A DNA stretch of 24,011 nt from a virus: UHGV virus genome UHGV-0298230, one strand, 5' to 3'. How positions within the stretch are numbered: position 1 is the stretch's first letter; every line of letters starts with the position of its first letter. A program made the position numbers and the translations under genes. Positions 120-11,144 of the stretch are shown here, piece after piece. The notes beneath the pieces are model-generated. The model worked only from the letters and a program-made list of their open reading frames with translations, made no database searches and had not been told where the DNA came from.

Positions 120-235
120 TTTATCAGTTCGCTCCCATCCGTACCAGTCCGCAAAATCCCCTGAATATCAAGCCTTCCGTAGATTCACAGTTCGTCATGG
201 TTCGCTTCAGATCGTTGACAGCCGCACTCCATGAC

Positions 236-280
236 GGGTAAAAAGTGGATAAAATAATTTTACCCACCGGATTTTTACCC
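236..280. repeat. Cluster of the same 9-mer in both orientations: GGGTAAAAA 236-244, GGATAAAAT 247-255, ATTTTACCC 257-265 (inverted), ATTTTTACCC 271-280 (inverted); candidate arm-type sites overlapping the int translation start
   Basis: Direct reading of sequence; the repeats end 1 nt before the int ATG at 281. Confidence 0.45.
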
Positions 281-1438
281 ATGCTCACCGTTAAGCAGAT
301 TGAAGCAGCAAAGCCGAAAGAAAAACCATACCGCCTTCTCGATGGTAATGGCCTGTACCTTTATGTCCCTGTATCCGGGAAAAAGGTATGGCAGCTTCGC
401 TACAAGATTGACGGTAAGGAGAAAATCCTGACCGTCGGAAAATATCCGCTTATGACTTTGCAGGAAGCAAGGGATAAAGCATGGACTGCGAGGAAAGACA
501 TCTCGGTTGGCATCGATCCGGTAAAAGCGAAAAAGGCTTCGTCTAACAACAATTCCTTTAGCGCCATTTACAAGGAATGGTACGAGCACAAGAAGCAAGT
601 CTGGTCTGTAGGGTATGCGACTGAACTTGCAAAAATGTTTGATGACGACATTTTACCTATCATCGGCGGCCTTGAAATTCAGGATATTGAGCCGATGCAA
701 CTGCTGGAAGTAATCCGCAGATTTGAAGATCGCGGTGCAATGGAGCGAGCCAACAAAGCCCGCAGAAGATGCGGCGAGGTTTTCCGTTACGCTATTGTTA
801 CTGGTAGGGCTAAATATAACCCGGCACCTGACCTTGCTGACGCCATGAAGGGGTACCGCAAGAAGAACTTCCCGTTTCTTCCTGCAGACCAGATCCCGGC
901 ATTCAATAAAGCACTGGCAACATTTTCAGGAAGTATCGTATCGCTCATTGCCACCAAGGTTTTACGCTACACTGCCCTAAGAACGAAAGAGCTTCGTTCC
1001 ATGCTATGGAAGAACGTCGATTTTGAAAACAGAATTATCACCATCGACGCCAGTGTGATGAAAGGACGCAAAATTCATGTGGTCCCGATGTCAGACCAGG
1101 TGGTTGAACTTCTCACTACGTTAAGCTCCATCACCAAACCAGTATCAGAGTTTGTTTTTGCCGGGCGCAACGATAAGAAGAAGCCAATCTGCGAGAATGC
1201 GGTACTGCTTGTGATCAAACAAATCGGCTATGAAGGTCTGGAAAGCGGTCACGGATTCAGGCATGAATTCAGCACGATTATGAACGAGCACGAATGGCCT
1301 GCTGACGCTATTGAAGTACAACTTGCACATGCCAACGGCGGATCTGTGCGCGGGATTTACAACCATGCTCAGTATCTCGATAAACGCAGAGAAATGATGC
1401 AGTGGTGGGCGGACTGGCTTGATGAAAAGGTGGAGTGA
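281..1438 (+). CDS. intS: Tyrosine integrase, P4/IntS-type (N-terminal DUF4102-like arm-binding domain plus C-terminal catalytic domain), 385 aa
   Basis: ORF 245..1438 begins with GTG; the first ATG is at 281 (MLTVKQIEAAKPKEKPYRLLDGNGLYLYVP...), a typical P4-family integrase N-terminus. The sequence matches my recollection of E. coli CPS-53/KplE1 IntS. C-terminal HxxR...Y-type region is present. Confidence 0.9.
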   Translation: MLTVKQIEAAKPKEKPYRLLDGNGLYLYVPVSGKKVWQLRYKIDGKEKILTVGKYPLMTLQEARDKAWTARKDISVGIDPVKAKKASSNNNSFSAIYKEWYEHKKQVWSVGYATELAKMFDDDILPIIGGLEIQDIEPMQLLEVIRRFEDRGAMERANKARRRCGEVFRYAIVTGRAKYNPAPDLADAMKGYRKKNFPFLPADQIPAFNKALATFSGSIVSLIATKVLRYTALRTKELRSMLWKNVDFENRIITIDASVMKGRKIHVVPMSDQVVELLTTLSSITKPVSEFVFAGRNDKKKPICENAVLLVIKQIGYEGLESGHGFRHEFSTIMNEHEWPADAIEVQLAHANGGSVRGIYNHAQYLDKRREMMQWWADWLDEKVE

Positions 1439-1590
1439 TCCACCTTAACCACTATCGAAGAGCACAAAGCCTTGCAATCCAGCGCAACGCTTTGTGTGTC
1501 TCAGTTTTGTCTCATCAACCATAGCAAGTATCGATCGATTGAGACTTGGATGATAGACTTCATGCCTTTCAGAATTCATTGATTAAATAA

Positions 1591-1953
1591 ATGTTAAAGC
1601 TATTTGCAAAGTACACCTCGATTGGCGTGCTGAACACACTTATACACTGGGTGGTTTTTGGTGTATGTATCTATGCCGCGCATACCAATCAGGCTCTGGC
1701 AAACTTCGCAGGTTTCGTTGTGGCTGTGAGTTTTAGCTTCTTCGCGAATGCAAGATTCACATTCAAAGCATCGACTACAACGATGCGCTACATGTTATAT
1801 GTCGGGTTCATGGGAACACTGAGTGCAACTGTTGGATGGGCTGCTGATAGATGTTCACTTCCTCCAATTGTCACTCTCATCACCTTCTCAGCCATCAGTC
1901 TTGTGTGCGGTTTCGTCTATTCAAAGTTCATTGTCTTTAGGGATGCGAAATGA
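1591..1953 (+). CDS. gtrA: GtrA, bactoprenol-linked glucose flippase (120 aa, 4-TM small membrane protein)
   Basis: Size, hydrophobicity and sequence ([24 protein letters not shown]...) typical of GtrA/YfdG; stop overlaps the gtrB start (ATGA at 1950-1953). Confidence 0.9.
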
Positions 1954-2873
1954 AGATATCTCTTGTAGTTCCTGTCTTCAATGAAGAAGAAGCAATACCA
2001 ATTTTTTATAAAACGGTACGTGAATTCGAAGAGTTGAAGCCATACGAAGTGGAAATTGTTTTCATAAATGACGGCAGCAAAGACGCTACGGAGTCAATTA
2101 TTAATGCTCTGGCTGTTTCAGATCCTCTAGTTGTTCCGCTGTCATTTACACGAAACTTTGGTAAAGAACCAGCATTATTCGCAGGGTTAGACCATGCAAC
2201 AGGCGATGCTGTTATTCCTATTGATGTTGACCTGCAAGACCCGATTGAGGTTATTCCTCATCTGATTGAAAAGTGGCAAGCAGGTGCCGATATGGTGCTT
2301 GCTAAACGATCTGACCGATCAACGGATGGCAGACTGAAGAGGAAAACCGCCGAGTGGTTCTATAAGCTACATAACAAAATTAGCAACCCGCAGATCGAGG
2401 AAAACGTTGGTGATTTCCGCTTGATGTCTCGCGAGGTGGTGGAAAACATTAAGCTCATGCCAGAGCGCAACCTGTTTATGAAGGGCGTGCTGAGCTGGGT
2501 TGGCGGACGCACCGATGTCGTTGAATATGCACGAGCAGAACGAGTCGCAGGCAGCACTAAATTTAACGGATGGAAACTGTGGAACCTTGCCCTTGAGGGG
2601 ATAACCAGTTTCTCAACATTCCCGCTGCGCATGTGGACTTATATCGGATTGTTCGTTGCTGGAATTGCTTTTCTTTATGGTGCATGGATGATTTTTGACA
2701 CGCTTGTATTCGGCAATGCTGTTCGTGGATATCCATCGTTATTGGTCTCCATTCTTTTCCTTGGAGGTATTCAACTTATCGGTATCGGTGTACTTGGTGA
2801 ATATATAGGAAGAATTTATGTGGAAGTAAAATGCAGACCACGATATATTTTAAAGAAAAAGGAACAATCATGA
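1950..2873 (+). CDS. gtrB: GtrB, bactoprenol glucosyltransferase (GT2 family, 307 aa)
   Basis: N-terminal GT2 motifs ([10 protein letters not shown]..., DGSKD, D-x-D region) and two C-terminal TM helices; classic position after gtrA. Confidence 0.92.
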
Positions 2874-4141
2874 ATAGCATAAACACAAACAGAATATTTT
2901 TGTTTTTGATTATATTTGTTATATGTTTCATCATATTCTGCATGCGTCGTCCTGATATTATTTCACACCCTCAACTATGGGCAGAGGATGGACGGGTATG
3001 GCTTGGTCAGGCTTATGCATTGGGCCCTCTGAAATCTATAATTTTAGTACAGGATGGTTACTATCAGACAATTTCAAAACTTGTTGCGACATTCTCCATG
3101 CTGTTCCCATTATATCTATCACCTTTTATTTTCACTGTTATTGCATTATCGATAAGATGCGTAATAATAACCTTCATACTATCTAATAGATTCAAAAGCG
3201 TTTCTATATATCCAAGAATATTAATTTCAATCTTCATTTTAACTATGCCACACCTTGAAGAGGTGCATGCCAACGTAACCAACACTCATTGGTATATGGC
3301 AATATGGCTATTCTTGGTGCTGGTAGCAGATAGAACTGATGGATTATATTGGAAAGCACACGACTTTTTGGTGATGGTTGTGGCTGGCCTAAGTGGGCCA
3401 TTCATTGTTTTTTTAGCTCCTGTTGCCTTACTAAGAATTACAAACGGAGATATTCTAAAAACTCCTATCAATGCAGTAAAAAATGCATTCAGAAACTTAA
3501 ACTTATTCTACATAACTTTCGCAATAGTGTGTTTAATTCAGATAGCCGCGATACTTCTCTCTTCTAAAGGCTCTCGACCGACCGCGCCACTTGGTGCAGG
3601 TGTAGGGATTTTGATGGATATACTATCCTCCAGAGTATTCCTTGGCTCATTTCTTAGTGAGAGCTTATCAAGAAAGGTGTGGGATCTGCATGCTTTAAAT
3701 TACTTTGTTTCTTTATGTGGCCTATCAATTAGTGCATACGTGCTATTAAAAGGGAACTGGAAAGAAAAAGCATTAGTGATTTTTCCTTATCTTATGTTGG
3801 GATTTGCCCTTGCCAGACCAGTCATTGCAAGAGACCAGCCTCAATGGCCTCTCTTACAAATAGGACCAGGACAAAGGTATTTTGTCATACCGGCCATATT
3901 TTGGGTGTCGATACTTCTAGCATTCACTAATATGCTTCATGGGCATGTAAAGAAATTAGCATTTTGCATAGTGGCTTGCTCAGTAATTATATCTGGAATT
4001 GTTAGCTTTAAAATTGAAAAAAGACCTAACAATGGATGGATACAAGAGGCATACAAATATGAGACAGCAGAGCCAGGGAGTCGCGTGAAAATGCACACAC
4101 TACCACACTCAGGATGGTATTTAGATATAATAAAAAAATAA
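2831..4141 (+). CDS. Serotype-specific O-antigen glucosyltransferase (GtrC-type polytopic membrane protein), 436 aa; alternative start at 2870 (423 aa)
   Basis: Highly hydrophobic multi-TM protein directly after gtrB; visibly AT-rich compared with flanking genes, as is typical of type-specific gtr genes. ATG at 2870 overlaps the gtrB stop (ATGA) and has AAGGAA 6 nt upstream, so it may be the true start. Confidence 0.8.
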
Positions 4142-4142
4142 G

Positions 4143-4170
4143 TTAAGGGCGGTATTCGCCCTTAATTTTA
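4143..4170. terminator. Bidirectional rho-independent terminator between the convergent gtrC and tailspike genes
   Basis: Perfect hairpin TTAAGGGCG-gtatt-CGCCCTTAA (4143-4165), flanked by an A-run upstream and TTTTA downstream; sits between stops at 4139-4141 (+) and 4168-4170 (-). Confidence 0.75.
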
Positions 4171-6060
4171 TCTAACTCTTGTTATCATAAAGTCAAAATC
4201 TGCATCAGCCAAGTTGCCAGAGTTATCAGTGGTCACGATCCTGATGGCTGTTGTGCTTGGCTTGCCTGCATATAGCACCTTAAACCCGTTAGTTTTAGTA
4301 CTTGCTACTACCTGAAAGTCATTTACTGTTGGTCCATATAAGAAAGCGCTATCAATTGAATATACCCCTGTGGATTGTTTTGCTATTGTTAAATAAGATG
4401 GTGCATACGCAACACCTGCCGACGTTACACTTCCAGAAATCACCGATGAAGTGCTTACCGTAGATATAGACTTGCTTATGTCCTCACTAAAATGACAGGT
4501 ATCCATTCCATTTAAAGTCATATAAGCACCTCCTGAGATAAATGGTCTCGAAGCGCTAGGTATGTATCCAAAAGCTGTTTGAGTAAAAAAATGACACCCA
4601 TTAAGGTTAACAATGACACGCCCACCACCAGTGCTTAACGCTCTAATCACATATGTACAATAACCGCCTGATGAATTCCCCCTTATAAATGTGCATGAAT
4701 TGATATTTACAATAAGAGGTGAAGATGTCATGTTATTAACCTGAATGTCTGATATTCCTTGATTTGCTTCAAAATAGCAATCAGATATATTTATCACAGA
4801 CATTGGTTCTTTAGCTCTTAGGTAAACACCTCCTGTACCAGTATCTCCCTGAGTTCCATTACCCTCAAAATTGCAGTTGTTTAGATTTATCCTTGTGCCT
4901 ATCTCTCCTTCAATTCCAAATTTTGAGTTACCACTAAAAACACCATTTATTTTTAGTGCGTTAACTGTGCTGTTTGTTCCTCCGTTGATGTACATACCGT
5001 AGTTATTATATTGAGAGTTAATTCTGTTAAATTCACTGGTAAGAACTCCTGTTATTACCAAGCCTGAATTATTTCTTACGAGATACACATCCTCAACTTT
5101 TAGGTATGCAGCATTGCTTAACCTTAATCCAACTCCAGAGTTACCAGTACCATAAACAGTGAAATTAGATAACTTCATACCGCTATGCACACCCTGCCCG
5201 CCCCCTTCTGAATTACCTATATACTCAAGGAAATCATTGCCATTGGTGTTAAATGCAGTATTCGCCATTGACTCGCCAGTAAAGTCAAACCTCTTACTTT
5301 TTCTTCCCATTACAGGAAAATTTGATCCAGAGTGGTTTACTGTAACTTTTGTGGTAGAATTGTATTGCCCATCCTTAATTTCTATACCTCCAGTACCAGT
5401 ATTAAGCATATTTTGAATAGCAGGTGAAACCTCTGTTCCAGATTTCACGCCAAACCATGAAGCCATTTTTGCGCCATTATATGAACGCTTCCAGCGACGG
5501 CCTACTGCATCAATTAATACTGTTCCATCATCATCTTCTGTCGTTGTATCATCTGAATCAAGGAAGAACCATCCTTCTCCTCCATCCTGATTATGTTCTC
5601 TTCCTACGCATTTTATTTGCGTTCCAGAAACGTTAGATGTCCTTATTTGTTCATAAGTCGCCCCAACAATATAAGATTCACCATCAACTGCTGCTAATTT
5701 GTTTATGAAAGCTGGCAATGCCTGATCGGGGTCATACTTCAGCACATTAGGAAAATAGAACTGCTGCGTACCATACGCATCATAAACAGCCATAGAATGG
5801 CCTTGCACGGTAACGAATTTGGCAATCTGTCCGTTATATACAGGGTAACCAGCCGCATTAATGATGATTGGTTGCGAAACAGGAACGTGAGAACCATCTT
5901 CGTTCTCTACATAAACCTGAATCTGGTTTTCAGGATTTACCGGGTCAGTGTCAATTTTACCGATATAAATTTTGCCATTGGCAACCGCTTTAAAAGAACG
6001 CGCCATAGTGAAGAGTTGCGAAGGCATACTCACTACAACATTGGCTGTAATGTCTGTCAT
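4168..6060 (-). CDS. Tailspike protein (630 aa): conserved P22-type N-terminal head-binding domain plus parallel beta-helix receptor-binding/O-antigen-cleaving domain
   Basis: N-terminal ~113 aa ([43 protein letters not shown]...KYDPDQ) closely resembles P22 gp9 head-binding domain; remainder has beta-helix-like repeats ([33 protein letters not shown]). Confidence 0.9.
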
Positions 6061-6135
6061 TTAATTTGCTCCAGATACAAGGAATCGCCGCAGCGTGGCT
6101 ACGGTTGGTATTTGTTGCATACCGAAACGGTACGA

Positions 6136-6164
6136 TTGTTGATTTGTACAGTAGGTTTTACGAT
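6136..6164 (+). promoter_or_regulatory. Candidate sigma70 promoter for the second mnt-like gene (-35 TTGTTG 6136-6141, 17-bp spacer, -10 TACGAT 6159-6164), adjacent to palindrome TACCGaaaCGGTA (6120-6132)
   Basis: Hexamer match and spacing only; weak. Confidence 0.3.
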
Positions 6165-6192
6165 GCCATTCCACCCATTTGGTGAGGCATTG

Positions 6193-6450
6193 ATGATGTA
6201 CAGCAAATACGATGAGGCGCAGTTCCACTTGAGGCTTACGCACGAGTTGCACGCCAAGATTAAGCAACGTGCAAAAATGAATAACAGGTCTATCAATTCC
6301 GAAATTGTGGCTACGATGGAAGAATCGCTCTCCAAACCATCACCTGTAAGCGGGTATCGTGATGAAGAAGAGAGGCTTGCCTCATTAATCTCGGAACGAG
6401 TAAAAGAAGTTGCGGCTGATATTCTTAGAAAAGAAAAAACCCGCGATTAA
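6193..6450 (+). CDS. mnt: Mnt-like ribbon-helix-helix repressor (Arc/Mnt family), 85 aa
   Basis: Sequence MMYSKYDEAQFHLRLTHELHAKIKQRAKMNNRSINSEIVATMEESLSKPSPVSGYRDEEERLA... closely parallels P22 Mnt as I recall it (…NGRSMNSE…SKPSPVTGYRNDAERLA…); SD GGTGAGG 6 nt upstream of the ATG at 6193. The long ORF 5797..6450 in the track is an artefactual N-terminal extension antisense to the tailspike. Confidence 0.8.
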   Translation: MMYSKYDEAQFHLRLTHELHAKIKQRAKMNNRSINSEIVATMEESLSKPSPVSGYRDEEERLASLISERVKEVAADILRKEKTRD

Positions 6451-6458
6451 GCGGGTTT
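6437..6458. terminator. Hairpin terminator AAACCCGC-gattaa-GCGGGTTT between the convergent mnt-like gene and the ant operon
   Basis: 8-bp GC-rich stem; on the minus strand it is followed by a T-run (TTTTTCTTTTC); the loop contains the mnt stop codon. Confidence 0.6.
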
Positions 6459-6464
6459 AATTGG

Positions 6465-6686
6465 TTAGTTATCAAAAAGTCCGTAAGTTTCTTCTTCTTC
6501 AGGTGTAAGGGGAAGAATCTCTACTCTATCTATAGATACCTTTTCAATGTACCCATGAGGTCTACTTAAAATTAAAGCTCTCTCATGCCACAGAACTCCA
6601 AGAATGTGATACCTTCCAGCATCTCCTTTTACCCTGGCTCTTCCTTTGATTCTTGGCGGCATAATGCCATATCTTTTCTTTGCCAT
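6465..6686 (-). CDS. Hypothetical small protein (73 aa), basic N-terminus and acidic C-terminus
   Basis: Start ATG overlaps the stop of the upstream gene (TAATG), indicating translational coupling; MAKKRYGIMPPRIKGRARVKGD...LTPEEEETYGLFDN; no family recognised. Confidence 0.55.
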   Translation of the reverse strand: MAKKRYGIMPPRIKGRARVKGDAGRYHILGVLWHERALILSRPHGYIEKVSIDRVEILPLTPEEEETYGLFDN

Positions 6687-7414
6687 TATGCAACATTGCT
6701 CCCATGAATCAGGTGTTGTAGTGCTTTAACACCCTCCGCATTGTAGCGGAATGCTTCCACCTGTTTGCTTGAATGCGCAGATTTATCCAAGAAGAACTTC
6801 CCGTACTGCTCAGTTTTGAGGTTGTTTGCGTTAGCAATGCGACCAATCTTGTTGGCCGTTACTCCAAGCTGCTCTGCAACCTCCCCTGCTGAGTAGTAAT
6901 GCTCTTCTATTGCCGGAAGAGGTATTGCATTAAAACCAACGAGCGGGTTGATTATACTTGCTGCCGCTGTCTGCTTTGCCTCCGGCGCAAGATTTGGCAT
7001 CAGATCGAACAGATTGGTAACAGCTTCAACCGTCATTTTCAATGTTCGCGCTTGACGATACTCAACAAGTCCACTCGCTGATTTACCGCTTTTAATGTGC
7101 GCTTCTTGCATACTTTCAAGTTGGTCTACCAGTGAGCGGCGAACGGCTTTTGACTCGCGAGCGGCAACTCGCAATGCTTGCTTGATTGACATCTCAATGA
7201 TAACCATCGAAGTTTTGTTCGCTTTTTGCACTACACTTTTTGTGTAGTGCTCTCCATCCAATTCATCTTCAATTTTCTCGATGAATTTGTTATTACGAAC
7301 CTCCGGCTCACCGCACTGTCTACGAGCCTGATTTACCATCTCAAGCAGGCGCTGGCTGTCAATGGTTTTATCCGTGACAACGGATCCGATGTTTGCTACA
7401 TTCTTAAAAGTCAT
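6686..7414 (-). CDS. Antirepressor-type regulatory protein, possibly Rha/ORF6N-like N-terminal region and KilA-C/ANT-like C-terminal region (243 aa from ATG at 7414)
   Basis: AAGGAA 6 nt upstream of the ATG at 7414; C-terminal ...YYSAGEVAEQLGVTANKIGRIANANNLKTEQYGKF resembles antirepressor KilA-C-type motifs; the ORF track start at 7501 is a TTG directly after the upstream stop. Confidence 0.65.
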   Translation of the reverse strand: MTFKNVANIGSVVTDKTIDSQRLLEMVNQARRQCGEPEVRNNKFIEKIEDELDGEHYTKSVVQKANKTSMVIIEMSIKQALRVAARESKAVRRSLVDQLESMQEAHIKSGKSASGLVEYRQARTLKMTVEAVTNLFDLMPNLAPEAKQTAAASIINPLVGFNAIPLPAIEEHYYSAGEVAEQLGVTANKIGRIANANNLKTEQYGKFFLDKSAHSSKQVEAFRYNAEGVKALQHLIHGSNVA

Positions 7415-7482
7415 TAGGCATTCCTTATGTGGTAGTAAGGGTGTGACATAGGCCGCCAGCAGCACACTGGCGGTTTTCTTTT
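7409..7482 (+). ncRNA. Candidate sar-like antisense RNA complementary to the start codon and SD of the 6686..7414 gene
   Basis: Plus-strand terminator CCGCCAG-cagcaca-CTGGCGG followed by TTTTCTTTT (7453-7482) lies in the intergenic gap of a minus-strand operon; candidate promoter -35 GTGACA (7374-7379), -10 TACATT (7397-7402); the transcript would contain UUCCUU, anti-SD to AAGGAA. Confidence 0.4.
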
Positions 7483-7501
7483 GCGCCGTCCTGTGCACCA
7501 A

Positions 7502-8140
7502 TCAATGAATCCATTCCTCGCCGCGAAGTTTTGCCAGCATTGGCTGAGCGTTCTTTACGACAAAATTGTTGGTATCAAGATTCTTCATTTCACGAAGAAG
7601 CGATTTCTTGGTTTCTTCTGACATGTAGCGAGTCTCATATGCAATATCGTAAATCCTTCCAGAAAGCTCAGAACCAATTTGCTTCATTCCTGGGTAGATG
7701 TGTTTGCACATTTGTTGACTCTTCTCCATCCACAATTGTAAGTAGCAGAGATTAACCAGCTCTTCGTCAGTAAACTGTTTTGCAATCGGTGAGCATTCTG
7801 CCTGCCGATCCAAAATATCCAGCACCCAGCGGCGGAACTCTTTGGCCTTGGGCGTAGAAGCAAACATCGCCACCAAGTGAGCGCCTCGGAGCGAGTAAAC
7901 TCTGACCGATTTGTTACGTAAGCTATTGTTTATCCCGTTGACCTTCATATTGAGGGTCAATGACATTGAGTCGGAAAATTCGTCAGCATTACGGGCATAA
8001 ATTTGGCTGATGGCATCAGTTTTTTTATAGCCGAGAGCCTTAGCTAGTTCGGCGGAGGTGAACCAGATAGACCCGCCCTCTGTTACAGGGTTAAAAGTGA
8101 ATCCTTGGAAGTTATAATCTGATTTTGCTACAATATTCAT
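7502..8140 (-). CDS. Antirepressor-type protein with Bro-N/AntA-like N-terminal domain (212 aa from ATG at 8140)
   Basis: AAGGAA 6 nt upstream of the ATG at 8140; N-terminal region (FNPVTEGGSIWFTSAELAKALGYKK...VRVYSLRGAHLVAMFASTPKAKEFRRWVLDIL) matches the Bro-N/AntA pattern; the track's longer ORF start at 8224 overlaps the arc-like gene and lacks an SD. Confidence 0.7.
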   Translation of the reverse strand: MNIVAKSDYNFQGFTFNPVTEGGSIWFTSAELAKALGYKKTDAISQIYARNADEFSDSMSLTLNMKVNGINNSLRNKSVRVYSLRGAHLVAMFASTPKAKEFRRWVLDILDRQAECSPIAKQFTDEELVNLCYLQLWMEKSQQMCKHIYPGMKQIGSELSGRIYDIAYETRYMSEETKKSLLREMKNLDTNNFVVKNAQPMLAKLRGEEWIH

Positions 8141-8215
8141 GTTAGTTTCCTTGGGTACGGTTACTGACATAGAGGCCCGGTTTGTGTTCGCGCACTTCCG
8201 GGCTTCACTATTTTT
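8141..8215 (+). ncRNA. Candidate sar-like antisense RNA covering the SD and start of the Bro-N antirepressor gene
   Basis: Plus-strand candidate promoters (-35 TTGGAA 8105-8110 / -10 TACAAT 8129-8134, or -10 TATAAT 8113-8118) inside the 5' end of the minus-strand gene; imperfect stem-loop 8173-8205 followed by TATTTTT (8209-8215) in the arc-ant gap; arrangement matches P22 sar RNA. Confidence 0.4.
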
Positions 8216-8390
8216 ACTGGGCATTAGCTCTTTCCTCTCTCAGGCTTTTAGCCAGTCGCTGCACAATCGCAGAGTTGATAGAAATTCCATCCATTTCAGC
8301 TACGCGTCTGATCTCCTCCTTCATTCGCGCTGGCAAACGAAGCTGGAAACTCTGACTTTTACGACCACTGTAAAGAACATCGCTCATCAT
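8214..8390 (-). CDS. arc: Arc-like ribbon-helix-helix repressor (58 aa from ATG at 8390; track ORF extends to 8405)
   Basis: ...SQSFQLRLPARMKEEIRRVAEMDGISINSAIVQRLAKSL... has the Arc/Mnt RHH signature; GGAG 6 nt upstream of the ATG at 8390; divergent from the mnt-like gene across an operator-rich region, as in P22 immI. Confidence 0.75.
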   Translation of the reverse strand: MMSDVLYSGRKSQSFQLRLPARMKEEIRRVAEMDGISINSAIVQRLAKSLREERANAQ

Positions 8391-8401
8391 CAATATCTCC
8401 G

Positions 8402-8475
8402 TCATAATGACATCACCGTGATGTCATGACACCATTATGATGCCATTGCTCATAATGTCAATATGATGCTACTGT
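8402..8475. promoter_or_regulatory. Divergent promoter/operator region: 21-bp perfect palindrome ATGACATCA-ccg-TGATGTCAT (8407-8427), repeated TCATAAT/ATTATGA half-sites, and a strong minus-strand promoter (-35 TTGACA at 8461..8456, 16-bp spacer, -10 CATAAT at 8439..8434)
   Basis: Direct reading; the palindrome lies at about +1 of the minus-strand promoter, consistent with an operator for an RHH repressor. Confidence 0.55.
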
Positions 8476-8510
8476 GTTTTTTATTGCTCATATGCCTTGC
8501 GAATAAGAAA

Positions 8511-8762
8511 ATGTCAGAAAAAGACGAATCAAATTTCATAGAAAGATTTACGGTTAGAATGCCTGAAGGCATGCGTAGTGCTATTGCGGAAAGGGCTAAA
8601 CGAAACGGTCGATCTATGAACTCAGAGATAGTTCAAATTCTTGAGGATGCGTTATCATCTGACGTCTCATCAGTAGACAAATCATTAGATCTTAAACAAA
8701 TAAAATCTTTACTTGATAAAATTTCCAACGAGTTACTGGATAGAATCCCAAAAGACACATAA
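8511..8762 (+). CDS. mnt: Mnt-like ribbon-helix-helix repressor (83 aa from ATG at 8511)
   Basis: MSEKDESNFIERFTVRMPEGMRSAIAERAKRNGRSMNSEIVQILEDAL... has the Arc/Mnt signature (NGRSMNSE); same length as P22 Mnt; the track start at 8463 lies inside the operator region. Confidence 0.75.
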   Translation: MSEKDESNFIERFTVRMPEGMRSAIAERAKRNGRSMNSEIVQILEDALSSDVSSVDKSLDLKQIKSLLDKISNELLDRIPKDT

Positions 8763-8808
8763 CAAAACATTATCATCCGGTGTTCTGCTCAAAACTAAGG
8801 AGGTTGGT

Positions 8809-9137: not shown

Positions 9138-11144
9138 TTACTGCTGGGCTTTCTCACTTGAAGCCTGAATTAGAGGTGTAAGAGTTTCAGATACCCGTCT
9201 GATCGCTCTATCATAAGCAGTACTTCCTTTTGGTGTGTTTGCTAACTTTAGTAATGCGTTCCTCATCGCGCGTGACTCATAGCCCCTGCCAGCCATACCG
9301 ATACCAGCTCCAACTGCCGCAACTTTTGCAAACATTGGATTTGTAACAGATGCAAGAGCTGTTATCAGCGCTGCTGGACCAGCTACCATTTGCCCTGTTA
9401 GTGGGCTTGCGGCAGCAGTAGCTGCCTGTCTAGTGGAATCAAGATATTTCATTATCCCATCAAGCTGTTTCCCATGCTCTCCTCTGAAGAACGTCTCAGC
9501 CTGCTTCCGATTCCTTTTCATTTCATTAATAAACTTCTCAACGCTAAGCTTTCCTGAATCGCTTGTCGCCTTATCCATTGCACGCTGAACAAGTGCTGCT
9601 CTAGCATTTTGACGCCCACTATCATCAAGCAATCGATAAAGTTGCGCCCTTTCCGCTGGGCTTTGGCTGAATACTAGTTTAGTGACATCTTCTGGCGTTG
9701 TTTTACCACTCTGAATAGCTTTTTGGACACGTGTATTGCTCATCATGTCGTTGAACTTTGCCCAAGAACGATCAATACGCGACATGTTTTGCGCTTCCTT
9801 CGCACCTAGTTTTGCGCCAACCGCTTTTTTCATGTCTGTTGTGTATGCGTTATAAACAGACTGCGCAGCTTTCTCCAGCGTATCTCTATCGACCTCGTCA
9901 GGTGCTGCCATAAAGCGCTTACGTAAGTTTGTACGGTTTTCTCTAGCTAATTGCAGGTTATTTGGACCGCTGGTGATGTCATTTCTAAACTGTTGAAGGA
10001 CAGAAACAGCTGAGCGGTCTTGCGATACTCCTGGGCGAGTTAACTTGGAAATCTGCTCATCAATTGCTTTCACTGTTCCAGTGATGTCAACAGGAGTATC
10101 CCCCATCAAACTGATGATCCTGTCGTACCGCTTGCCAGCAGCCTGAATAAATTGCTGCTGACCACGAGTAGCTGATTGGTAAAGTTGTGCGTCAGATATT
10201 CCACCAACATTATCGCTAAATGTTCTAACTAAATCTTCCCTGGCCTTTTGCTGTGCATTTCTTATCCCACCTGTTCCGGCTATTGGGATTCGCTCAGCCA
10301 TAGCTCGTGCTTGCTTACCAATATTTGTTCCCGGTTCCACAAGATCTGTTGTCATCAGTGGCAAGTTGTTCTGCTTGGCAAAGTCAATCTGAGCTTGTTT
10401 TTCAGGAGCAATCTTACCCATAGCAGAACGAGACACTGCGCTTGCGGTGTTTTCTACACCCTTCAGTACCCCACCAAGACCAGCAGAAATTGCAGTTTGA
10501 ACTGGATTAACATTCTCACCGCCAGCGATCTTTGTGGCACCCTGTAAAGCTAAATCAGTAGCGCCTGATTTTAGTGTTGCACCTACAACAGACGCAGCTC
10601 TACCTGCTGGAGTGAATGCAAGAGCATTTGCCAAGAATGACGTTATATCCTGCGGTGACAAACCAGGCTTGTTAAGTGCATATTCCCCTGAAGGAAGGGT
10701 GACTATGGAATTTCCCTTCTCATCCTTCCGGATTTTCCCGCCAATACTTTGCAGTATTTTCTCCTGTGAAGCGTCGGAACCAAATAGCTGCCCCAATCCA
10801 GCACGCAGCGCATCAGTGCTTAAGCTATTAAGCTCTGGAGCAGACCCAACATTTTGCAGTCTCTCCATTTCTGGTGTCATTCGGCTTTCACCGGTAACGG
10901 CATCGCGCATTGCAGCACCTAAAACAGCCCCTTGCTCAGCAGATCGATCTAGTCCTTCCTTCTGCTGAGTGGCAAGCTGTGCATATCCTGATGCAAGTGA
11001 GTTGTCTGCTGGCGATTGCTGAACACCTTGTTGTGTTGGTGCTGACTGACCAGCAAAATACTCATCAATGGCGGTGCCAATATCTTCGGTGCTCGTACCA
11101 TCAGGAAAGGTAAATGTCTTACCGTTTGCAGTTACTTTCATCAT
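9138..11144 (-). CDS. Ejection (internal virion) protein, P22 gp16-like (668 aa)
   Basis: Position and order after gp7/gp20 homologues; N-terminus [30 protein letters not shown]; start overlaps the upstream stop (ATGA). Confidence 0.85.

What the first reader, a model, noticed from the sequence alone, without database searches (positions are those of the whole stretch)
6120..6450. Second Mnt paralog, convergent with the ant operon and divergent from the tailspike
P22 has a single mnt. Here a second, more P22-Mnt-like copy sits at the far end of the ant operon, sharing a 130-bp control region with the tailspike gene. That region has no copy of the 21-bp palindrome but carries a distinct 13-bp palindrome TACCGaaaCGGTA (6120-6132). 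It may repress a different promoter, possibly tailspike or read-through from the ant operon, or be a remnant of a second immunity module.
Basis: partly seen in the sequence, partly recalled or inferred. Interest (0 to 1): 0.55.

Follow-up and report, generated by a model that had tools for sequence, protein, structure and literature searches.

The report
Orphan Mnt repressor with own operator
The "second Mnt" is real. It is the widespread self-contained mnt cassette (operator, weak promoter, gene, terminator) that sits just upstream of the tailspike gene in many P22-like prophages; the small palindrome is almost certainly its own operator, not a tailspike control element.

Summary
An 84/85-aa ribbon-helix-helix gene lies at 6196 (or 6193)..6450 on the + strand. 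It is divergent from the tailspike gene and convergent with the arc-ant operon. It matches P22 Mnt over its full length (47% over 73 aa). The other copy (Mnt1, 8511..8762) matches only in the RHH domain.

TACCGaaaCGGTA is at 6120-6132. It lies at the position and in the register of P22 O_mnt, abutting the -35 of a weak Pmnt homologue (TTGTTG-17-TACGAT).

- In 18 diverged homologous loci the arms TACC/GGTA (0.99 pairwise identity) and the -10 (1.00) are nearly invariant. Flanks are 0.56-0.60 and synonymous sites are near saturation.
- The operator type follows the N-terminal DNA-reading domain, including in natural domain-swap chimeras.
- No credible promoter faces the tailspike gene.
- No second site was found in the phage DNA scanned (the window, 50 kb of strain KSC207 holding the prophage, and about 2.1 Mb of related loci).
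- dN/dS is 0.005-0.09, so the gene is not decaying.

The mnt-next-to-tailspike layout without arc or ant in between is already described for ST64T, ST104 and L. Here it coexists with a separate, orthogonal Mnt1/Arc/Ant module, an arrangement found in about 25 of 5426 complete E. coli genomes.

Verdict: a new member of a known kind. What the repressor acts on beyond its own promoter is unknown. Interest is modest.

The parts
6118..6134 (.). Predicted operator O_mnt2: CATACCGAAACGGTACG. Core TACC-N5-GGTA is 6120-6132, the centre is 6126, and the two (A/G)TAC boxes at 6119-6122 and 6130-6133 are 11 bp apart.
   Evidence: Sequence. It is the only copy in the window and in 50 kb of strain KSC207 that hold the prophage. 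The arms have 0.99 pairwise identity in 18 diverged loci, against 0.56-0.60 for the flanks. It sits at the same position and register as O_mnt of P22, ST160 and Gally. The operator type covaries with the N-terminal domain type.
6136..6164 (+). Predicted promoter P_mnt2: -35 TTGTTG (6136-6141), 17-bp spacer, -10 TACGAT (6159-6164). The inferred start is near 6171, which puts the operator centre near -45.
   Evidence: This is the best + strand site in 6030-6230, at 6.5 bits. It is homologous to P22 Pmnt TTGAGA-17-TATCAT (11.9 bits) and ST160 TTGTGG-17-TATGAT (7.9 bits). ATTG and TTACGATGC are invariant in 18 diverged loci although non-coding. No transcript data exist, so the start site is inferred.
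6196..6450 (+). mnt2: 84-aa Mnt-type repressor (alternative start ATG 6193, 85 aa), made of an RHH domain, an SKPSPVSGYR linker and a C-terminal helix.
   Evidence: PGAP annotates the same CDS in strain KSC207. dN/dS of the RHH domain is 0.005-0.09.
6437..6458 (.). Bidirectional hairpin terminator that overlaps the last codons of mnt2. On the - strand it is followed by TTTTTTCTTTTC and ends the ant operon. On the + strand the T tract is weaker (TTTAATT).
   Evidence: terminator scan, - strand; folding energy -12.4 kcal/mol (z -5.6) on the - strand and -13.8 kcal/mol on the + strand.
6086..6104 (.). Boundary sequence CGCCGCAGCGTGGCTACGG, the joint between the tailspike leader and the mnt cassette.
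   Evidence: The same motif precedes gene 9 in P22, and P22 has a second copy next to t_ant. The mnt cassette is joined to one or the other copy in different loci, for example window versus L085. CUS-3 annotates it as 'bsq1; boundary sequence'.
4168..6060 (-). Tailspike gene with a P22-type head-binding N-terminus. Its SD is GGAGC, the complement of 6068-6072.
   Evidence: Context only: no promoter was detected between it and the operator.
8407..8427 (.). 21-bp palindrome ATGACATCACCGTGATGTCAT at the start of the predicted Pant (TTGACA 8461..8456, CATAAT 8439..8434, - strand). This is the control site of the other module (Mnt1 8511..8762 +; Arc-like 8214..8405 -).
   Evidence: Context only: it shows that the two modules have separate sites.

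Best explanation
Mnt2 is the resident 'orphan' mnt cassette of the ant moron. The cassette is self-contained: operator, weak promoter, gene and terminator. It lies directly upstream of the tailspike gene in many P22-like (Lederbergvirus) phages and prophages.

The palindrome is its cognate operator, the homologue of P22 O_mnt. A Mnt2 tetramer (two RHH dimers) is predicted to read the two (A/G)TAC boxes 11 bp apart. The predicted operator centre is near -45 and abuts the -35 of P_mnt2, so the only regulatory connection the sequence supports is control of its own promoter.

Its recognition residues (Q, H, R on the beta-strand) and its site differ from those of Mnt1 and Arc, which control the adjacent ant operon from the 21-bp palindrome. 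The window therefore carries two orthogonal circuits side by side through mosaic recombination at the boundary sequence.

Shown here: homology, position, conservation, covariation, purifying selection, and absence of a tailspike-facing promoter. Inferred: binding, tetramer formation, the sign of autoregulation, and expression from the prophage.

The downstream role is unknown. My best guess is a prophage-expressed trans-acting repressor, for example against promoters of incoming relatives that carry the same site.
For: - Full-length homology to P22 Mnt; Pfam Arc domain.
- The operator is at the same place as O_mnt in the other phages. Its centre is 66-71 bp from the ATG and it is immediately 5' of the ATTG of the -35 in P22, epsilon34, ST64T, ST160, Gally and the window.
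- Conservation across 18 diverged loci: arms 0.99, -10 1.00, -35 0.87, flanks 0.56-0.60. In the same comparisons dS is about 1 or saturated.
- Covariation: every QFHLRL-type N-terminus has TACC-N5-GGTA, whatever its C-terminal domain. The two exceptions are single-base arm variants, L057 and the pseudogene L007. Every QFNLRL-type N-terminus with a palindrome has AAGACCACRGTGGTCTT, including the chimeras L076 and L079-L082 that carry the Mnt2-type C-terminus; Proteus phage Brookers keeps only one half-site. The reciprocal chimera L061 has TACC. P22's HFNFRM type has AGGTCCACCGTGGACCT.
- Architecture: 119 of 120 IMG/VR loci with this operator, and 29 of 29 with the ST160-type operator, have it between the tailspike N-terminus and an mnt gene. 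The other flank varies.
- Only one site was found in a complete prophage and in the window. Non-cassette TACC-N5-GGTA sites in 2.09 Mb of related DNA number about 40, against about 32 expected by chance (my estimate), and none has the AAA centre.
- The literature already describes mnt-only ant morons (PMC2629481; PMC8022706).
Against: - There are no binding, transcript or expression data.
- P_mnt2 is weak by consensus (6.5 bits), and the stricter scan did not report it.
- Two single changes at 6124/6128 are symmetric in position but not complementary. VSe13, for example, has TACCTAAATGGTA. The inner pair is therefore probably not read, and the perfect palindrome overstates the site.
- A gene under strong purifying selection whose only detectable target is its own promoter implies an undiscovered output.
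- The cassette's perfect linkage to the tailspike gene could be functional rather than historical.
Confidence: 0.72

Rival explanations
1. Mnt2 gates tailspike expression. Either it represses a tailspike promoter in the shared intergenic region, or it acts as a roadblock at 6118-6134 to read-through from the ant or late operon.
For: The operator always lies between upstream - strand transcription and the tailspike start codon, in 148 of 149 loci. Villafane et al. note that the P22 ant moron affects how much late transcription reaches gene 9, and that Mnt and Arc may take part (PMC2629481).
Against: There is no credible - strand promoter: the best scores 4.6 bits, against 12.5-15.4 for real Pant promoters. 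Only the tailspike SD is conserved between the operator and the gene. The same tailspike leader occurs in P22, which has no operator there. The operator-to-tailspike distance varies from about 54 to 257 bp. In most loci the upstream neighbour is gene 16 of the late operon, which is silent in lysogens and antiterminated in lytic growth (the latter from general knowledge of P22 gp23).
Confidence: 0.12
2. Simple redundancy: Mnt2 is a duplicate of Mnt1 and binds the same 21-bp palindrome at Pant.
For: Both are Arc-family RHH proteins in the same moron.
Against: They share only 43% identity over 37 aa. The strand residues differ (Q/H/R vs R/T/R) and the C-terminal domains are unrelated. The two palindromes are different and each is unique. 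In other phages Mnt2 occurs with a C2-like repressor in place of Mnt1, or with no ant operon at all.
Confidence: 0.02
3. A non-functional relic of a degraded immI region that is drifting towards loss.
For: arc and ant are missing next to it. The literature raises this possibility for phage L (PMC8022706). One Citrobacter copy (L007) is a pseudogene with a mutated operator arm, and phiKp_30 has an N-terminally truncated copy.
Against: dN/dS is 0.005-0.09 while dS is about 1 or saturated. The operator arms and the -10 are invariant across E. coli, Salmonella, Shigella, Citrobacter and Serratia loci. The cassette is present in 102 of 5426 complete E. coli genomes.
Confidence: 0.05
4. It is an RHH antitoxin or a ParG-like partition protein. 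RefSeq and PHROG label the family 'partition protein ATPase'.
For: phrog_795 is named 'partition protein ATPase'. There are weak Pfam hits to HicB and FitA-like RHH domains.
Against: The protein is 84 aa with no ATPase domain. No toxin or ParA gene is in an operon with it: the next gene is convergent, behind a terminator. It is homologous to P22 Mnt over its full length. The label looks like an annotation error.
Confidence: 0.01

Closest known systems
P22 Mnt repressor with O_mnt/Pmnt (immI region of Salmonella phage P22)
   Same: RHH domain, linker and C-terminal helix, with 47% identity over 73 aa. The operator is an odd-length palindrome with a central base pair, directly 5' of the -35 of Pmnt and 66-70 bp from the ATG. 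It is located in the ant moron between genes 16 and 9.
   Different: The strand residues are Q-H-R instead of H-N-R. The operator is CATACCGAAACGGTACG instead of AGGTCCACCGTGGACCT. There is no Pant, arc or ant on the other side of the operator, only the tailspike leader.
mnt-only ant morons of ST64T, ST104, L, SE1 and ST160 (Villafane et al. 2008, PMC2629481; Zaworski et al. 2021, PMC8022706) and of E. coli phage Gally
   Same: The cassette architecture is identical: boundary sequence, operator, weak promoter, mnt, hairpin, divergent from gene 9 with about 135-146 bp between the start codons.
   Different: A different N-terminal domain type (PQFNLRLP) and operator (TAAGACCACGGTGGTCTTA). In those phages the moron has no ant operon. 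Here a complete Mnt1/Arc/two-antirepressor module lies alongside.
Annotated homologues in phages JEP4, VSe13, Sf101 and IME10
   Same: The same protein lineage (63-99% identity) with the same operator and promoter. JEP4 also has the same downstream ant operon (95.5% DNA identity).
   Different: JEP4 has a C2-like repressor where the window has Mnt1. Sf101 has gene 16 directly after mnt. VSe13 has a short antirepressor gene and a hypothetical gene before its gene 16 homologue. None of these copies has been studied experimentally, as far as I could find.
CopG of plasmid pMV158 and its operator
   Same: An RHH repressor that reads a 13-bp pseudo-symmetric element with 4-bp inverted boxes (PMC2724298). 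The size and layout resemble TACC-N5-GGTA.
   Different: An unrelated replicon-control system. The resemblance is analogy of site geometry only. No membership is claimed.

Membership tests
Mnt repressor family (P22 Mnt type) | N-terminal ribbon-helix-helix (Arc-like) DNA-binding domain | tested here: met
   Pfam PF03869 at E 4e-15, residues 8-53.
Mnt repressor family (P22 Mnt type) | Homology that extends through the linker and the C-terminal helix that tetramerises P22 Mnt | tested here: met
   BLASTP gives 47% over residues 7-79. phmmer to PDB 1mnt gives E 3e-16 over 7-79. That this helix forms the tetramer in P22 Mnt is from my own knowledge.
Mnt repressor family (P22 Mnt type) | Forms a tetramer and binds a single symmetric operator | not testable with these tools
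   Only indirect support: two (A/G)TAC boxes 11 bp apart, symmetric about 6126.
Mnt repressor family (P22 Mnt type) | Symmetric operator immediately upstream of the -35 of its own promoter | tested here: met
   The position and register match P22, epsilon34, ST64T, ST160 and Gally. The site is conserved in 18 diverged loci.
Complete immI module (mnt-arc-ant as in P22 and epsilon34) | The Mnt operator overlaps the start of a strong divergent Pant that drives arc and ant | tested here: not met
   The best divergent site scores 4.6 bits, against 15.4 for P22 Pant. The divergent gene is the tailspike gene. The window's arc-ant operon has its own promoter and palindrome at 8407-8461.
Orphan mnt cassette of the ant moron (ST64T/L/SE1 type) | mnt directly divergent from the tailspike gene, with no arc or ant in between, inside the gene 16 to gene 9 interval | tested here: met
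Orphan mnt cassette of the ant moron (ST64T/L/SE1 type) | The moron lacks any antirepressor operon | tested here: not met
   The window has Arc-like, Bro-N/P22AR_C Ant, a second antirepressor-family gene and orf73 between mnt2 and gene 16. This combined layout recurs in about 25 complete E. coli genomes and in many IMG/VR contigs.
Type II antitoxin or ParG-like RHH proteins | Cotranscribed toxin or ParA partner | tested here: not met
   mnt2 is monocistronic, between its promoter and a hairpin, and the neighbour is convergent.

The most novel reading that the evidence does not exclude
Orphan Mnt cassettes are not leftovers. They would be a conserved, autonomous, prophage-expressed regulator, permanently linked to the tailspike gene, whose real target lies elsewhere. 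Candidates are promoters of incoming or co-resident phages (anti-antirepressor immunity), host genes, or transcription entering the tailspike gene. In that case this window would show two orthogonal RHH circuits with different jobs stacked in one moron.
Probability: 0.2. Interest if true: 0.5.

Novelty: new member of a known kind. Interest (0 to 1): 0.3.

Why it matters
It settles what the second Mnt is. It is the common tailspike-adjacent mnt cassette, not a duplication and not a tailspike regulator.

It also gives a testable operator for a new specificity class of Mnt (strand residues Q-H-R paired with TACC-N5-GGTA). Natural domain-swap chimeras make this useful for the RHH recognition code.

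A small open question becomes sharper. Mnt genes without an adjacent ant are under strong purifying selection, and so far their only visible target is their own promoter, so their actual function is unknown.

For annotation, the family label 'partition protein ATPase' in RefSeq and PHROGs is wrong.

Tried and rejected
- The repeat finder missed the palindrome because its arms are shorter than the minimum seed.
- The strict promoter scan found nothing in 6061-6192. A PWM scan with P22 controls was needed.
- The genome-contig scan gave only 3 loci.
- Searches for a second Mnt2 site found nothing above chance: in the window, in 50 kb of strain KSC207 that hold the prophage, and in 2.09 Mb of related loci, both strict and with 2-3 mismatches.
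- I looked for this operator, or the ST160-type operator, next to arc-ant as in a complete immI. There were none among 120 and 29 IMG/VR sites.
- L108 was a chance hit inside a coding region of an unrelated phage.
- The upstream in-frame ATG at 6163, used in the Sf101 annotation, was rejected as the start. It is out of frame or followed by a stop in L008, L062 and L063.
- Berggrun & Sauer 2001 (PMC30133) is not held. Statements about Mnt tetramer contacts and about Mnt's effect on Pmnt therefore rest on my own knowledge.
- Literature searches found no experimental work on orphan Mnt proteins.

Full report
**1. What is there**

The window carries the late-operon end of a P22-like prophage in reverse orientation.
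- The tailspike gene is 4168..6060 (-).
- A gene 16 homologue is 9138..11144 (-).
- Between them lies a 3-kb 'ant moron'.

From the gene 16 side, the moron contains:
- Mnt1 (8511..8762, +)
- a 21-bp palindrome (8407-8427) at the start of a strong predicted Pant (TTGACA-16-CATAAT, - strand)
- an Arc-like gene (8214..8405, -)
- a Bro-N/P22AR_C antirepressor (7502..8140, -)
- a second antirepressor-family gene (6686..7417, -)
- orf73 (6465..6686, -)
- a bidirectional hairpin (6437-6458)
- the gene in question, mnt2 (6196 or 6193..6450, +)

The interval from mnt2 to the tailspike start codon is 132-135 bp and contains TACCGAAACGGTA at 6120-6132.

**2.

Mnt2 has the Arc/RHH domain (E 4e-15). It aligns with P22 Mnt through the linker and the C-terminal helix: 47% over 73 aa, and PDB 1mnt at E 3e-16. 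Mnt1 resembles P22 Mnt only in the RHH domain (38 aa), and its closest solved relative is AmrZ.

The two copies are 43% identical over 37 aa.

**3. The layout is not unusual**

Many Lederbergvirus genomes have mnt directly divergent from the tailspike gene, with no arc or ant in between: SE1/ST160, ST64T/L, Gally, Sf101, IME10 and VSe13. Only P22, epsilon34 and close relatives have arc-ant between them.

JEP4 has the same Mnt2 (98.8% identity) and the same downstream antirepressor operon, but a C2-like repressor where the window has Mnt1.

The Mnt2 cassette is present in 102 of 5426 complete E. coli genomes. The whole three-RHH arrangement is present in about 25. Strain KSC207 is 99.9% identical over 5950-8800.

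In IMG/VR the flank on the far side of mnt2 varies: gene 16 directly (the majority), the ant operon with Arc-like plus Mnt1, or the ant operon with a C2-like repressor.

The literature already names this interval the 'ant moron' and records mnt-only versions (PMC2629481). [quoted passage not shown]

**4. The palindrome is the O_mnt homologue**

In P22 the 17-bp O_mnt (AGGTCCACCGTGGACCT) is immediately 5' of the -35 of Pmnt (TTGAGA-17-TATCAT) and 66 bp from the mnt ATG. ST160 and ST64T have TAAGACCACGGTGGTCTTA abutting TTGTGG-17-TATGAT. Gally has AGAGACCACTGTGGTCTTA abutting TTGAGG-17-TAAGAT.

The window has CATACCGAAACGGTACG abutting TTGTTG-17-TACGAT. Its centre is 67-70 bp from the ATG, and it has the same odd symmetry about one central base pair.

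In an alignment of 18 diverged upstream regions (E. coli, Salmonella and Shigella phages, a Serratia genome, and IMG/VR contigs; the Citrobacter pseudogene L007 is not among them), mean pairwise identities are:

| Segment | Mean pairwise identity |
|---|---|
| Arms TACC/GGTA | 0.99 |
| -10 | 1.00 |
| -35 | 0.87 |
| Operator centre | 0.78 |
| Left flank, boundary sequence, tailspike leader | 0.56-0.60 |

Positions 6124 and 6128 vary (G/T/A and C/T), sometimes non-complementarily, as in VSe13 TACCTAAATGGTA. The perfect 13-mer is therefore one allele. The conserved site is two (A/G)TAC boxes 11 bp apart with an AAA centre. That spacing is what two RHH dimers one helical turn apart would need (inference, by analogy with the Arc and Mnt tetramers, from my own knowledge).

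**5. Covariation**

About 60 distinct upstream sequences encode the N-terminus MYSKYDEAQFHLRL. They are fused to at least five different C-terminal domains. All carry TACC-N5-GGTA, with two single-base exceptions: L057, and the pseudogene L007, whose mnt carries a stop codon.

Mnt proteins with the N-terminus MGRDDPQFNLRL all carry AAGACCACRGTGGTCTT. This includes the chimeras L076 and L079-L082, whose C-terminal half is of the Mnt2 type. The reciprocal chimera L061 (QFHLRL N-terminus, P22/ST160-type C-terminus) carries TACC. The site follows the DNA-reading domain, not the rest of the protein.

**6. A functional gene with no second target found**

dN/dS of the first 48 codons is 0.005-0.09 against the window, while dS is about 1 or saturated.

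The site is unique in the window and in 50 kb of strain KSC207 that hold the prophage. Relaxed searches give chance-level hits. In 2.09 Mb of related phage DNA there are 200 cassette sites and about 40 other TACC-N5-GGTA sites. My estimate of the chance expectation is about 32, and none of the 40 has the AAA centre.

Of 120 IMG/VR sites matching the operator, 119 lie between a tailspike N-terminus and mnt; the exception is a coding-region coincidence in an unrelated phage. All 29 ST160-type sites have the same layout. No copy of either operator sits next to arc-ant.

**7. No tailspike control element was detected**

The best - strand sigma-70-like site in 6030-6230 scores 4.6 bits. The positive controls score 15.4 (P22 Pant) and 12.5 (this window's Pant).

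Between the operator and the tailspike ATG only the tailspike SD is conserved. The boundary sequence (CGCCGCAGCGTGGCTACGG, 6086-6104) recurs as a motif, although its mean pairwise identity across the 18 loci is only 0.56. P22 has the same leader without an operator, and the boundary sequence is where the cassette is joined in different ways in different loci.

The distance from the operator to the tailspike start varies from about 54 to about 257 bp. The operator-to-(-35) junction never varies.

**8. Mechanism, with its limits**

The best-supported reading is that Mnt2 binds 6118-6134 and regulates its own weak promoter. The start is inferred near 6171, which puts the site centre near -45. Transcription would end at the hairpin that also terminates the convergent ant operon.

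Mnt1 and Arc would run the antirepressor operon independently from 8407-8461.

The sign of autoregulation and the biological output are unknown. Possible outputs are trans-repression of promoters on incoming relatives, a host target, or a roadblock before the tailspike gene. None has evidence here.

Binding, tetramerisation and expression are inferred, not shown.

**9. Verdict**

It is a new member, with a new operator specificity, of an already described kind. Interest is modest (0.3).

Noticed in passing
window 8407-8475; L015, L018 and L056 upstream of their Mnt1-type genes: The palindrome at the ant-operon promoter also changes with the type of Mnt1. The 83-aa ERFTVRMP type has ATGACATCAC(CG/CA/TA)TGATGTCAT. 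The 107-aa DRFNIRLP type has TTGGTTCTAGAACCAA instead. L056 (RFTVRLP, 107 aa) has a degenerate TGACACCAACATGATGTCA.
   Followed up: partly
L001 7509-8078 (JEP4); about 20 IMG/VR loci: In many relatives the same antirepressor operon is paired with a divergent C2/LexA-like 189-aa repressor instead of Mnt1, and sometimes without the Arc-like gene. The regulator of this ant operon is therefore itself swappable.
   Followed up: partly
L076, L079-L082 and L061: These are natural Mnt domain-swap chimeras. L076 and L079-L082 have an ST160-type N-terminus with an Mnt2-type C-terminus; L061 is the reciprocal. The recombination point is near the SKPSPVSGYRD linker.
   Followed up: partly
L007 about 3930-4252 (Citrobacter sp.): The mnt copy has an in-frame TAG (SK*DE), and its operator arm reads AGTA instead of GGTA. 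Gene and site appear to be decaying together.
   Followed up: no
window 6086-6104; L005 2085-2103 and 2200-2218 (P22): The boundary sequence (G)CGTGGCTACGG marks the joint of the mnt cassette. P22 has two copies flanking a short segment between ant and gene 9, and different loci join the cassette at one or the other.
   Followed up: partly
window 6686-7417 and 7502-8140: The ant operon encodes two antirepressor-family proteins (phrog_1726, and phrog_245 with Bro-N + P22AR_C), plus a conserved 73-aa ORF of unknown function (phrog_4977) at 6465-6686.
   Followed up: no
window 2831-4141: A 436-aa multi-pass membrane protein lies downstream of the tailspike gene. It matches phrog_19534 ('glucosyltransferase', moron category) and is probably an O-antigen modification gene. 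Strain KSC207 lacks it and has the integrase there instead.
   Followed up: no
RefSeq records of ST64T, SE1, Sf101, epsilon34 and others; phrog_795: The Mnt family is widely labelled 'partition protein ATPase', or 'chromosome segregation ATPase' in Sf101. An 83-aa RHH protein cannot be an ATPase, so this is a propagated annotation error.
   Followed up: no
L090 (NZ_CP019558.1) 180-7700 versus 39980-47500: The KSC207 chromosome record starts inside the prophage and repeats its early region about 39.8 kb later, with frameshifted nin genes in the first copy. This is either a tandem or partial prophage duplication or an assembly artefact. PGAP also calls Mnt1 there 'incomplete, missing C-terminus'.
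   Followed up: no
LC768498.2 (Klebsiella phage phiKp_30) 6031-6225: This phage carries only residues 21-85 of an Mnt2-type protein (98.5% identical), without the DNA-reading strand. It is a truncated copy in a different host genus.
   Followed up: no
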